Part shown: positions 22,575-22,660 of the stretch, piece after piece
How positions within the stretch are numbered: position 1 is the first letter of the stretch
How the letters are laid out: the number at the start of each line of letters is the position of its first letter
Sequence record: OR885871
Reading direction: 5' to 3' (one strand)
DNA: 64,000 bases
From: Escherichia phage vB_EcoM_JN03
Position numbers and translations under genes: made by a program
The notes under the pieces: generated by a model
What the model was told of the DNA's origin: nothing
Database searches by the model: none
Seen by the model: the letters and a program-made list of their open reading frames with translations, nothing else

Positions 22575-22660
22575 TTGCTTCAACTGGATTCGAACCAGTG
22601 ACCTCAGGCACCTTGTTCTCTCGAAACTTTCCTGCGCTCTACCACTGGAGCTATGAAGCA
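22575..22660 (-). ncRNA. tRNA-like element: canonical acceptor, D and T arms but a 36-nt region in place of the 17-nt anticodon arm
   Basis: Minus strand reads TGCTTCA-TA-GCTC-CAGTGGTA-GAGC-...-ACTGG-TTCGAAT-CCAGT-TGAAGCA-A; no 5-bp/7-nt anticodon stem-loop found by exhaustive sliding. Confidence 0.4.

What the first reader, a model, noticed from the sequence alone, without database searches (positions are those of the whole stretch)
22575..22660. tRNA-shaped element with intact acceptor, D and T arms but no anticodon stem-loop
The minus strand has a 7-bp acceptor stem, U8-A9, a canonical D-arm (GCTC-CAGTGGTA-GAGC) and T-arm (ACTGG-TTCGAAT-CCAGT). The 36 nt between them (GCAGGAAAGTTTCGAGAGAACAAGGTGCCTGAGGTC) contains no 5-bp stem with a 7-nt loop in any register. 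It sits directly next to tRNA-Ser. It could be a tRNA with a short anticodon-loop insertion, a pseudo-tRNA, or a tRNA mimic.
Basis: seen in the sequence. Interest (0 to 1): 0.55.

Follow-up and report, generated by a model that had tools for sequence, protein, structure and literature searches.

The report
Anticodon-less tRNA carrying a grafted hairpin
A Salmonella phage keeps, among its tRNA genes, an isoleucine tRNA whose anticodon arm has been replaced by a conserved 30-base hairpin that also sits on a different, very widespread and undescribed phage RNA, so it probably acts as a stable carrier that displays this hairpin and does not decode.

Summary
Window 22575-22660(-) has intact acceptor, D and T arms (Rfam tRNA 47.6 bits) and no anticodon stem-loop in any register.

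It is not a loop insertion. Kuttervirus relatives carry a normal tRNA-Ile(GAU) at this locus with identical flanks, acceptor and T arm. Here the 17-nt anticodon arm is replaced by a 30-nt arm, CAGG-ARA-GYUUC-GNRA-GAAC-AAGGUG-YCUG.

The same arm occurs in Agtrevirus, in N4-like phages and in a 111-kb phage, where a second tRNA-Ile gene (AAU type, different acceptor stem) was converted. Every cloverleaf pair is kept in all six distinct versions.

The arm also occurs, up to 34/34 nt identical, as the middle arm of an unrelated four-way-junction RNA (coliphage HK620, between pR'/qut and tQ). That scaffold is absent from Rfam 15 and from the papers searched. It occurs in more than 120 bacterial species and carries about 86 unrelated arm families, one of them a copy of 16S rRNA helix 11.

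The module's inner hairpin is also an extra arm of three phage tRNA-Ile(GAU) genes.

Best reading: a non-decoding, tRNA-scaffolded display RNA, possibly a decoy or ligand. Its partner and function are unknown, and its expression is inferred, not shown.

The parts
22575..22660 (-). Whole tRNA-shaped element (86 nt): a tRNA-Ile-derived chimera with no anticodon arm
   Evidence: Rfam tRNA 47.6 bits over model positions 1-71; sequence; annotated 'tRNA-OTHER' in relatives
22654..22660 (-). Acceptor stem, 5' strand (UGCUUCA)
   Evidence: Pairs with 22576-22582; 7 of 7 pairs kept in all six chimeras, 5 of 7 with changes on both sides
22636..22651 (-). D arm (GCUC-CAGUGGUA-GAGC)
22605..22634 (-). 30-nt module that replaces the anticodon arm: CAGG / AAA / G-U-UUC / GAGA / GAA-C / AAGGUG / CCUG
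   Evidence: Replaces TTCCC-CTGATAA-GGGAG of the canonical tRNA-Ile allele. The same module is found on the HK620-type scaffold
22616..22625 (-). Inner hairpin UUC-GAGA-GAA with a GNRA tetraloop
   Evidence: The tetraloop varies only as GAGA, GGAA, GAAA or GGGA across variants. The same hairpin is the extra arm of tRNA-Ile(GAU) genes L075, L578 and L579
22583..22599 (-). T arm (ACUGG-UUCGAAU-CCAGU)
22575..22582 (-). Acceptor stem, 3' strand (UGAAGCA) plus discriminator A; no encoded CCA
   Evidence: the canonical tRNA-Ile allele has the same 3' end
22664..22752 (-). tRNA-Ser(GCU) immediately upstream, in the same transcription unit
   Evidence: ARAGORN; Rfam 56 bits
22327..22349 (-). Terminator-like hairpin (9 bp, 6 G-C, followed by a T run) that closes the tRNA cluster

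Best explanation
The element is a conserved RNA gene derived from a phage tRNA-Ile. It most likely works as a natural 'tRNA scaffold'. It would be transcribed with the neighbouring tRNAs and matured like them, by RNase P at the 5' end and by trimming and CCA addition at the 3' end. The intact acceptor, D and T arms would fold into the usual stable L-shape. It has no anticodon, so it cannot read codons. In place of the anticodon arm it presents a 30-nt hairpin with a GNRA tetraloop, a short stem and an asymmetric purine-rich internal loop. This hairpin would be the payload: a binding site for some factor acting in trans, so that the RNA acts as a decoy, sponge or recruiter. The inner hairpin is otherwise found only as an accessory arm of phage tRNA-Ile(GAU) genes, and all tRNA hosts of the module are tRNA-Ile genes, so the partner may be something that deals with tRNA-Ile-type RNAs. 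Shown here: the anatomy, the derivation from tRNA-Ile, the modular sharing of the arm between two scaffolds, the conservation of the fold, and the position inside the tRNA cluster upstream of a terminator-like site. Inferred: transcription, processing, stability, lack of aminoacylation, and the payload or decoy role.
For: (1) Derivation from tRNA-Ile. Kuttervirus relatives (UTK0004, Mooltan and others) have tRNA-Ile(GAU) at the same locus with identical flanks, acceptor and T arm. Only the stretch from the D loop to the variable loop differs. (2) About 143 of 164 matching phage records match at 90% identity or more, the band of the module-bearing form. (3) Selection on the fold. Six distinct chimeras from Kuttervirus, Agtrevirus, Gamaleyavirus (pSb-1), contig L033 and the 111-kb phage EP_H11 keep 144 of 144 pair positions. 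Five of seven acceptor pairs changed on both sides, and no shuffle of 500 reached the observed covariation score. (4) pSb-1 and EP_H11 are a second tRNA-Ile gene converted to this form. Their relatives Bp4, PhAPEC7 and UE-M3 have tRNA-Ile(AAU) with the same acceptor and T arm. (5) The arm is a discrete module. Only 8 variants exist, differing at 5 positions, and all tetraloops are GNRA. Three identical variants occur on both scaffold types. In the fetched loci there are 43 HK620-type carriers, 17 tRNA-type carriers and no others. (6) The other scaffold is a real structured RNA. Its closing helix P1 pairs at 8.3 of 10 positions against 5.2 in the control, with 58 different P1 sequences. Hairpins 1 and 3 show compensatory changes. 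It carries about 86 arm families, and one family is a copy of 16S rRNA helix 11, which fits the idea of displayed RNA pieces. (7) The inner hairpin is the extra arm of three tRNA-Ile(GAU) genes. (8) The element lies 3 nt after tRNA-Ser and upstream of a terminator-like hairpin. (9) Two further non-canonical tRNA-like RNAs lie in the same cluster, one of them supported by covariation.
Against: There are no expression, processing or binding data. The module's own helices never vary, so its structure rests on thermodynamics and on the GNRA pattern, not on covariation. Folding of the isolated arm is no better than shuffled sequence (z about 0 to -1). Kuttervirus genomes are closely related, so the ~143 carriers are not independent observations. 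Some Kuttervirus phages carry the ordinary tRNA-Ile allele, so the module is not essential. No partner, antisense target or mimicked host RNA could be identified.
Confidence: 0.5

Rival explanations
1. Neutral or dead gene. A chance recombination destroyed the anticodon arm of a dispensable tRNA-Ile, and the product persists by descent and occasional transfer without any function.
For: The canonical allele exists in some Kuttervirus phages, so neither form is essential. The module helices show no covariation. The carriers within Kuttervirus are near-clonal. Phage tRNA genes are often dispensable (general knowledge).
Against: All 24 pairs are kept in six distinct versions across Ackermannviridae, Schitoviridae and an unclassified 111-kb phage, with compensatory acceptor changes, including G1-U72 in pSb-1 against G1-C72 in EP_H11. 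The same 30 nt are kept on a second, unrelated scaffold. Variation is confined to the tetraloop N and R positions and three other sites.
Confidence: 0.15
2. Selfish event at the DNA level. The arm marks an allele that resists a homing endonuclease cutting canonical phage tRNA-Ile genes, and it spreads by gene conversion in co-infections, as in intron-less homing in the T4 tRNA region.
For: Short, precise conversion tracts occur in two different tRNA-Ile genes with unchanged flanks. These phage families carry many homing endonucleases, and T4 SegB acts in a tRNA cluster (general knowledge).
Against: There is no inserted gene next to the converted allele. The flanks are collinear between module and canonical alleles in both Kuttervirus and Gamaleyavirus. 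The same module sits on the HK620-type scaffold, which has no tRNA-Ile target. The RNA fold is maintained after conversion.
Confidence: 0.1
3. A specific form of the decoy idea: the RNA is bait for, or an inhibitor of, a host nuclease that attacks tRNA anticodon stems, such as P2 Old-type Toprim nucleases.
For: P2 Old cuts tRNAs at paired CNG/CNG motifs in the anticodon stem, and phage tRNAs escape by altering that stem (PMC12445682). The base of the module is a paired CAG/CUG.
Against: Here the motif is at positions 27-29/41-43, not 28-30/40-42. A37 is absent. The same paper found that phage tRNA rescue was not by competitive inhibition. A paired CNG/CNG is a common 3-bp motif.
Confidence: 0.08
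4. It is still a decoding tRNA: either an intron is removed, or an oversized loop reads codons in an unusual way.
For: Short 37/38 introns exist in a few viral tRNAs, for example the tRNA-Tyr-like gene in L274. Some GenBank records label the element tRNA-Leu or tRNA-Pro.
Against: No 13-nt deletion gives a canonical arm in any variant. The stem itself was replaced. The positions that vary (U/C at module position 9, and the tetraloop) would change any putative anticodon. The assigned amino acids differ between records.
Confidence: 0.03

Closest known systems
Engineered 'tRNA scaffold' for expressing recombinant RNA in E. coli (Ponchon and Dardel, 2007; from my own knowledge)
   Same: The architecture is the same: the acceptor, D and T arms of a tRNA are kept so that the cell processes and stabilises the RNA, and the anticodon arm is replaced by a structured RNA of interest.
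   Different: That is a laboratory design. Here the arrangement is natural, conserved in several phage families, and the payload's function is unknown.
Non-decoding pseudo-tRNA 'tRNA-Other' of Bacillus cereus (PMC3399842, listed)
   Same: A tRNA-shaped gene product that does not act in translation and is annotated 'tRNA-Other'. According to that paper's abstract, deleting it changes cell physiology.
   Different: It is chromosomal, not phage-borne, and is unrelated in sequence. It was not compared here.
Stable 'species 1' and 'species 2' RNAs in the phage T4 tRNA cluster (from my own knowledge)
   Same: Non-tRNA stable RNAs encoded within a phage tRNA operon, with tRNA-like ends, processed with the tRNAs, and of unknown function.
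   Different: The element here is clearly a tRNA-Ile derivative. The neighbouring 150-nt el2 resembles the T4 RNAs more closely in size.
tRNA-like domains of tmRNA and of bacterial Y RNA-like YrlA
   Same: RNAs that keep the acceptor/T-arm elbow of tRNA and have something else in place of the anticodon arm.
   Different: There is no G3-U70, no tag reading frame and no Ro-binding stem. ARAGORN and Rfam give no tmRNA or Y RNA match for the element.
Phage tRNAs with altered anticodon stems or loops that escape host tRNA nucleases (for example against P2 Old, PMC12445682)
   Same: Phage-encoded tRNA genes whose anticodon arm is the part under change in conflicts with the host.
   Different: Those tRNAs still decode and rescue translation. 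This one has no anticodon, so it cannot replace a cleaved tRNA.
HK620-type four-way-junction RNA
   Same: It carries the identical module as its middle arm, and its topology is similar: a closing stem, a hairpin, a variable arm and a second hairpin.
   Different: The scaffold sequence is different. P1 is 7-16 bp, and the two hairpin loops (GGCUGA and AUCAGC) are complementary to each other, unlike D and T loops. The window has no such scaffold.

Membership tests
Canonical decoding tRNA | 7-bp acceptor stem, D arm, and T arm with a T-loop consensus | tested here: met
   Rfam RF00005 47.6 bits against a gathering score of 29
Canonical decoding tRNA | Anticodon arm: 5-bp stem and 7-nt loop with U33 and a purine at 37 | tested here: not met
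   No such hairpin in any register; ARAGORN makes no call; Rfam aligns 22 nt against 9 model positions
Intron-containing tRNA | Removing one contiguous insert restores a canonical anticodon arm | tested here: not met
   All 13-nt deletions tested in 4 variants, with no solution; the stem sequence itself differs from the parental tRNA-Ile
tRNA pseudogene (decaying) | Relaxed constraint: broken pairs accumulate in the arms | tested here: not met
   144 of 144 pair positions are paired in 6 distinct sequences; 5 acceptor pairs are compensatory
Phage tRNA-Ile(GAU) gene family (by descent) | Same locus, flanks, acceptor and T arm as annotated tRNA-Ile genes | tested here: met
   Alignments with UTK0004 and Mooltan (Kuttervirus) and with Frozen (Erwinia phage)
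Phage tRNA-Ile(GAU) gene family (by function) | GAU anticodon, needed for decoding and, in E. coli, for IleRS recognition (established knowledge) | tested here: not met
   No anticodon arm; aminoacylation cannot be tested with these tools
tmRNA / tRNA-like domain | G3-U70 acceptor pair, a tag reading frame, and detection by ARAGORN or Rfam | tested here: not met
   The acceptor has C3-G70; no tmRNA call; only a 10.6-bit hit on the T arm of the neighbouring element; similarity to E. coli ssrA is not significant
HK620-type scaffold RNA | P1 helix, hairpin 1 with a GGCUGA loop, and hairpin 3 with an AUCAGC loop | tested here: not met
   No match in the window with up to 3 mismatches; only the middle arm (the module) is shared
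Substrates of P2 Old-type anticodon-stem nucleases | Paired CNG/CNG at stem positions 28-30/40-42, and A37 | tested here: inconclusive
   A paired CAG/CUG is present, but at 27-29/41-43, and there is no position-37 equivalent
T4-type stable RNAs of tRNA operons | Sequence or structure homology to T4 rnaC or rnaD | not tested
Any Rfam 15 family other than tRNA | Covariance-model match | tested here: not met
   cmscan at E up to 10 over 22200-24200. For the HK620-type RNA, cmscan at E up to 1 and up to 10 gave no family covering the scaffold

The most novel reading that the evidence does not exclude
Phages use tRNA-shaped and four-way-junction RNAs as interchangeable display scaffolds for short functional RNA hairpins. 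On this reading the window's element and the HK620-type RNA are two carriers of one payload. The HK620-type scaffold, found in more than 120 bacterial species with about 86 unrelated arm families including a 16S rRNA helix copy, would be an undescribed class of hypervariable phage non-coding RNA. Its arms might be a library of decoys or ligands aimed at host factors, for example counter-defence against nucleases that target RNA.
Probability: 0.3. Interest if true: 0.9.

Novelty: new variant of a known kind. Interest (0 to 1): 0.7.

Why it matters
Phage tRNA genes are usually explained by codon usage or, more recently, as replacements for tRNAs cut by host defences. This element cannot decode, yet its tRNA body is kept intact in several phage families. 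That points to a different use of the tRNA fold: a natural version of the laboratory tRNA scaffold that carries a small RNA payload.

The payload links the element to a very widespread (pro)phage RNA with a hypervariable arm. That RNA is absent from Rfam 15 and from the papers searched. If the arms are decoys or ligands, this would be a new layer of RNA-based conflict between phage and host, and a source of compact natural RNA modules.

There is also a practical point. The element is annotated inconsistently in GenBank, as tRNA-OTHER, tRNA-Leu, tRNA-Pro, as a CDS, or not at all. This affects tRNA counts in many therapeutic Salmonella and E. coli phages.

Tried and rejected
- **Intron or expanded decoding loop.** No deletion restores an anticodon arm.
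- **Module as a copy of E. coli rRNA.** The best local alignments (23S around 1291-1318; 16S AACAAGGU) are no better than shuffled sequence: 83 and 126 of 300 shuffles score as well.
- **Module or el2 resembling tmRNA.** I recalled CAAGGUGC / AAGGUGCAUGCCGA from memory, but the similarity is not significant (148-183 of 500 shuffles).
- **Resemblance to SRP RNA domain IV, the sarcin-ricin loop, a kink-turn, the ATP aptamer, or CsrA/Hfq sites.** Considered by eye only. None fits the variable positions or the pairing register, and Rfam gives no hit.
- **Antisense target in the window.** Matches are at chance level.
- **Relaxed module pattern to find co-varying inner hairpins.** It returned only the same 8 variants plus coding-sequence false positives.
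- **Module in bacterial species-representative genomes.** No hits.
- **Conserved neighbouring gene for the HK620-type scaffold.** None found.
- **General association of that scaffold with tRNA genes.** About 3 of 57 bacterial loci only.
- **tmRNA-like tag reading frames as part of that scaffold.** They are confined to a subset of enteric lambdoid phages.
- **Other arms on the same tRNA scaffold.** Only the L273-type arm was found, and it is not shared with HK620-type scaffolds.
- **Homing endonuclease gene next to the converted allele.** None; the flanks are collinear.
- **Literature.** Ten searches, including searches by sequence string, found no description of either RNA. The Pas sRNA preprint does not contain these sequences.

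Full report
**1.

The minus strand of window 22575-22660 reads UGCUUCA-UA-GCUC-CAGUGGUA-GAGC-G-[30 nt]-AGGUC-ACUGG-UUCGAAU-CCAGU-UGAAGCA-A. Rfam's tRNA model aligns to it end to end at 47.6 bits (gathering score 29; E = 1.4e-8), with 22 nt where the model expects the last stem pair and the 7-nt loop. ARAGORN does not call it, and Rfam's default filters miss it. A script found no 5-bp/7-nt hairpin in any register, and no 13-nt deletion that would create a canonical anticodon arm with U33 and R37.

The element begins 3 nt after the encoded CCA of tRNA-Ser(GCU). It lies in a minus-strand cluster: tRNA-Met, tRNA-Asn, tRNA-Gln, a tRNA-like element, tRNA-Ser, this element, and a 150-nt tRNA-like element. 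The cluster ends at a terminator-like hairpin at 22349-22327.

**2. Where it comes from**

The window is a Kuttervirus (Ackermannviridae), 98.8% identical to Salmonella phage SenASZ3 over the tRNA region. Several GenBank records annotate the same 86 nt as 'tRNA-OTHER'. Others call it tRNA-Leu or tRNA-Pro, overlay a CDS on it, or leave it unannotated.

A minority of Kuttervirus phages (UTK0004, Mooltan, phage 241 and others) have an ordinary 73-nt tRNA-Ile(GAU) at exactly this position. It has identical upstream and downstream flanks, the same acceptor stem and the same T arm. Only the stretch from the D loop to the variable loop differs, and the 17-nt arm UUCCC-CUGAUAA-GGGAG is replaced by a 30-nt arm. 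So this is an arm replacement in a tRNA-Ile gene, not an insertion into a loop. Of 164 phage records that match the element, about 143 match at 90% identity or more, the band of the module-bearing form.

**3. The chimera is maintained, not decaying**

The same arm on a tRNA-Ile body occurs in:
- Agtrevirus (SKML-39, P46FS4);
- a 72-kb contig (L033);
- the N4-like Gamaleyavirus phages pSb-1 and HK2;
- the 111-kb phage EP_H11.

pSb-1 and EP_H11 have a different acceptor stem (GCCCACU/AGUGGGU or AGUGGGC). Their own relatives Bp4, PhAPEC7 and UE-M3 carry a normal tRNA-Ile(AAU) with that acceptor and T arm at the same locus. So a second tRNA-Ile gene was converted, over a tract covering the D arm and the anticodon arm.

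Across the six distinct chimeric sequences, all 144 pair positions of the cloverleaf-plus-module structure are standard pairs. Five of seven acceptor pairs changed on both sides. No shuffle of 500 reached the observed percentage paired or covariation score, and sliding the partner columns drops pairing to 31-42%. The acceptor differences amount to essentially one replacement event plus a U72/C72 difference, so this is modest but real evidence for selection on the fold.

**4. The arm is a portable module**

Searching viral contigs for the arm alone found it in dozens of ~40-kb phage contigs in a non-tRNA context. The type example is coliphage HK620, positions 16087-16198, which is unannotated and lies between the late promoter pR'/qut and the late terminator tQ. 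It is also present in prophages of 107 of 5,426 complete E. coli genomes.

There the module is the middle arm of a four-way junction:
- a closing helix P1;
- a linker AAU;
- hairpin 1 (GCGCA-GGCUGA-UGCGC);
- the arm;
- a linker ending in AAG or AUG;
- hairpin 3 (GCCGG-AGAUCAGCA-CCGGC);
- the 3' strand of P1.

The two hairpin loops are complementary to each other (GCUGAU/AUCAGC). A loop-loop contact is my inference: both loops are conserved, but I saw no compensatory double changes.

HK620 and Agtrevirus share 34 of 34 identical nucleotides across the module. Only 8 module variants exist in all the data. They differ at module positions 6, 9, 14, 15 and 27. The tetraloop is GAGA, GGAA, GAAA or GGGA, so always GNRA. 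Three variants occur on both scaffold types. In the fetched loci the module is on 43 HK620-type and 17 tRNA-Ile scaffolds and nowhere else. A pattern that left the inner hairpin free recovered no new variants. The module's own secondary structure therefore rests on the GNRA pattern and on thermodynamics, and the latter is unremarkable.

**5. The second scaffold is widespread and apparently undescribed**

- **Hairpin 1** shows compensatory changes: GCGUA/UACGU, GCGAA/UUCGC, GUCGGA/UCCGAC, GACGG/CCGUC and UGCCAA/UUGGCG.
- **Hairpin 3** does too: GCUGG/CCAGC, GCAGG/CCUGC, GCCAG/CUGGC and GUCGG/CCGAC.
- **Distribution.** These include Pseudomonas, Burkholderia, Xanthomonas, Massilia, Rhizobium, Halomonas, Dyella and Geobacteraceae. 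The full scaffold is present in these, apart from a few coding-sequence false positives.
- **P1.** In 90 such genomes the ten positions of P1 pair at 8.3 on average, against 5.2 when strands from different genomes are combined (maximum 5.6 in 200 permutations). There are 58 different P1 sequences.
- **Arms.** 87 of the 90 arms are unique, and none is the module. In viral contigs, 133 distinct arms fall into about 86 families. One family is a sense copy of 16S rRNA helix 11 (Rfam SSU model positions 237-283, E = 1.6e-5 and 7e-7; 86-90% identical to E. coli rrsH).
- **Not described.** Rfam 15 has no family covering the scaffold. Ten literature searches, including searches by sequence string, found nothing.
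- **Context.** There is no conserved neighbouring gene and no general linkage to tRNA genes in bacterial genomes.
- **This window** has no such scaffold.

**6. A link to tRNA-Ile**

The 17-nt inner part of the module (UUCGNNAGAACAAGGUG) also matched a tRNA in contig L075. A metagenome scan found two more (L578, L579). All three are 84-nt tRNA-Ile(GAU) genes with normal anticodon arms, different acceptor and anticodon stems, and an extra variable arm GUUC-GNRA-GAAC followed by AAG and a T stem that begins GUG. So the hairpin appears in three settings: as an accessory arm of decoding phage tRNA-Ile genes, as the distal half of the arm that replaces the anticodon arm in tRNA-Ile-derived chimeras, and as an arm of the HK620-type scaffold. 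Every tRNA host is a tRNA-Ile gene. This suggests, but does not prove, that whatever reads the hairpin is connected with tRNA-Ile-type RNAs. It also suggests that the module arose by rearrangement of an extra-arm tRNA-Ile.

**7. Mechanism**

*Shown:* a conserved, tRNA-Ile-derived RNA gene with no anticodon, lying inside a tRNA cluster and carrying a discrete hairpin that is shared with another structured phage RNA.

*Inferred:* it is co-transcribed with the tRNAs. RNase P cuts at its 5' end. Its 3' end is trimmed and CCA is added, since none is encoded; the canonical allele has the same 3' end. It folds into a stable L-shape. It is not charged by IleRS, because E. coli IleRS depends on the anticodon (established knowledge). 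It presents the hairpin, with its GNRA loop and asymmetric ARA/AAGGUG internal loop, where the anticodon arm would be, as a ligand for a factor acting in trans.

This is the architecture of the engineered tRNA scaffold. A decoy or sponge role in phage-host conflict is my preferred reading, for three reasons: the second scaffold's arms are hypervariable, at least one arm copies a host rRNA helix, and both temperate and virulent enterobacterial phages carry the module. No partner was identified.

One concrete lead is that P2 Old cuts paired CNG/CNG motifs in anticodon stems (PMC12445682). The base of the module is a paired CAG/CUG, but one base pair out of register and without A37, and that paper found no competitive inhibition by phage tRNAs. 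I give this specific version low weight.

**8. Rivals**

- **Neutral dead gene (0.15).** It is argued against by the perfectly kept fold in independent lineages and by retention of the module on a second scaffold.
- **Homing-type selfish allele (0.10).** It would explain the precise conversion tracts. However, there is no adjacent endonuclease gene, and it does not explain the HK620-type carriers.
- **Old-type nuclease decoy (0.08).** See section 7.
- **Decoding tRNA with an intron or expanded loop (0.03).** It fails the direct test.

**9. Novelty**

Non-decoding tRNA-like RNAs are known: B. cereus tRNA-Other, the tRNA-like domain of tmRNA, YrlA, and the T4 stable RNAs. The element itself has been annotated as 'tRNA-OTHER'.

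What is new is:
- its derivation from tRNA-Ile by arm replacement;
- its maintenance across phage families, and conversion of a second tRNA-Ile gene;
- the sharing of the arm with a very widespread, hypervariable and undescribed phage RNA;
- the link to extra-arm tRNA-Ile genes.

I rate the element a new variant of a known kind. The HK620-type scaffold may deserve a stronger label, but it lies outside the window. Interest is 0.7. The main limits are the absence of expression or partner data and the lack of covariation within the module.

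Noticed in passing
window 22415-22564 (-): A second, 150-nt tRNA-like RNA ('el2') lies directly downstream. It has a 7-bp acceptor-like stem (GAGUGUG/CGCACUC), a T arm (UCGGG-UUCGAUU-CCCGA) and two long arms in place of the D and anticodon arms. It is conserved in Kuttervirus whichever tRNA-Ile allele is present, and has a 79%-identical homologue in Agtrevirus. RNAalifold predicts 47 pairs, 6 of them with compensatory changes. Neither ARAGORN nor Rfam calls it.
   Followed up: partly
window 22826-22912 (-): A third tRNA-like stretch, read by eye as having an acceptor-like stem, a 6-bp stem with an 8-nt loop (GUUGAUCA) at the anticodon position, an imperfect T arm and an encoded CCA. 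The structure was not tested. It is 100% identical in relatives, where it lies upstream of a true tRNA-Tyr(GUA). This window and SenASZ3 lack that tRNA-Tyr, apparently by deletion between two CACCAA repeats. No Rfam tRNA hit at E up to 10.
   Followed up: partly
L148 (HK620) 3001-3112; many loci L038-L577: A four-way-junction RNA with almost invariant hairpins 1 and 3, a co-varying closing helix and a hypervariable middle arm (about 86 arm families). It occurs in (pro)phages of at least 120 bacterial species across Proteobacteria and beyond. It is absent from Rfam 15 and from the papers searched.
   Followed up: partly
L205 4600-4646; L222 1953-1999; L213: One arm family of that scaffold is a sense copy of 16S rRNA helix 11 (Rfam SSU model positions 237-283; 86-90% identical to E. 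coli rrsH).
   Followed up: partly
L148 (HK620) about 2780-2829, and the equivalent position in L038, L059, L169, L187 and L208: tmRNA-type tag reading frames (ANEEMYLAVA, ANDDVVLMAA, ANDEQFLAVA, ANDDLMLMAA, ANEEVYLAVA, each followed by a stop codon) lie 200-400 nt upstream of the scaffold in the pR' leader of a subset of enteric lambdoid phages. Rfam tmRNA_permuted gives weak hits (20-31 bits). I saw no tRNA-like domain, and ARAGORN calls no tmRNA. They are absent from the diverse bacterial loci.
   Followed up: partly
L075 9808-9891; L578 7943-8026; L579 1294-1377: Three 84-nt phage tRNA-Ile(GAU) genes with a class-II-like extra arm GUUC-GNRA-GAAC, which is unusual for tRNA-Ile. Each lies in a very tRNA-rich contig, and in L578 and L579 next to a second, normal-length tRNA-Ile.
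   Followed up: partly
L273, L275, L276, L280 (53-100 kb viral contigs): Another tRNA-shaped gene with the same D and T arms but a different oversized arm (UCACA, then 22-25 nt, then UGUGA) and acceptor GGCACAU/AUGUGCU. This arm was not found on HK620-type scaffolds.
   Followed up: no
L057 4307-4368 (-): A sub-threshold type III hammerhead ribozyme match (30.5 bits against a gathering score of 48.5; E = 0.009) about 200 nt upstream of the HK620-type RNA, on the same strand.
   Followed up: no
L455 (phage UE-M3) 414-489: An odd tRNA next to tRNA-Ile(AAU). ARAGORN reports it as 'tRNA-???' with a two-base anticodon, and GenBank annotates it 'tRNA-OTHER'. It is unrelated to the module.
   Followed up: no
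GenBank records of relatives: The element is annotated inconsistently: tRNA-OTHER, tRNA-Leu or tRNA-Pro, overlapped by 'hypothetical protein' CDSs (pSb-1 gp97, an SKML-39 CDS), or not annotated at all.
   Followed up: yes
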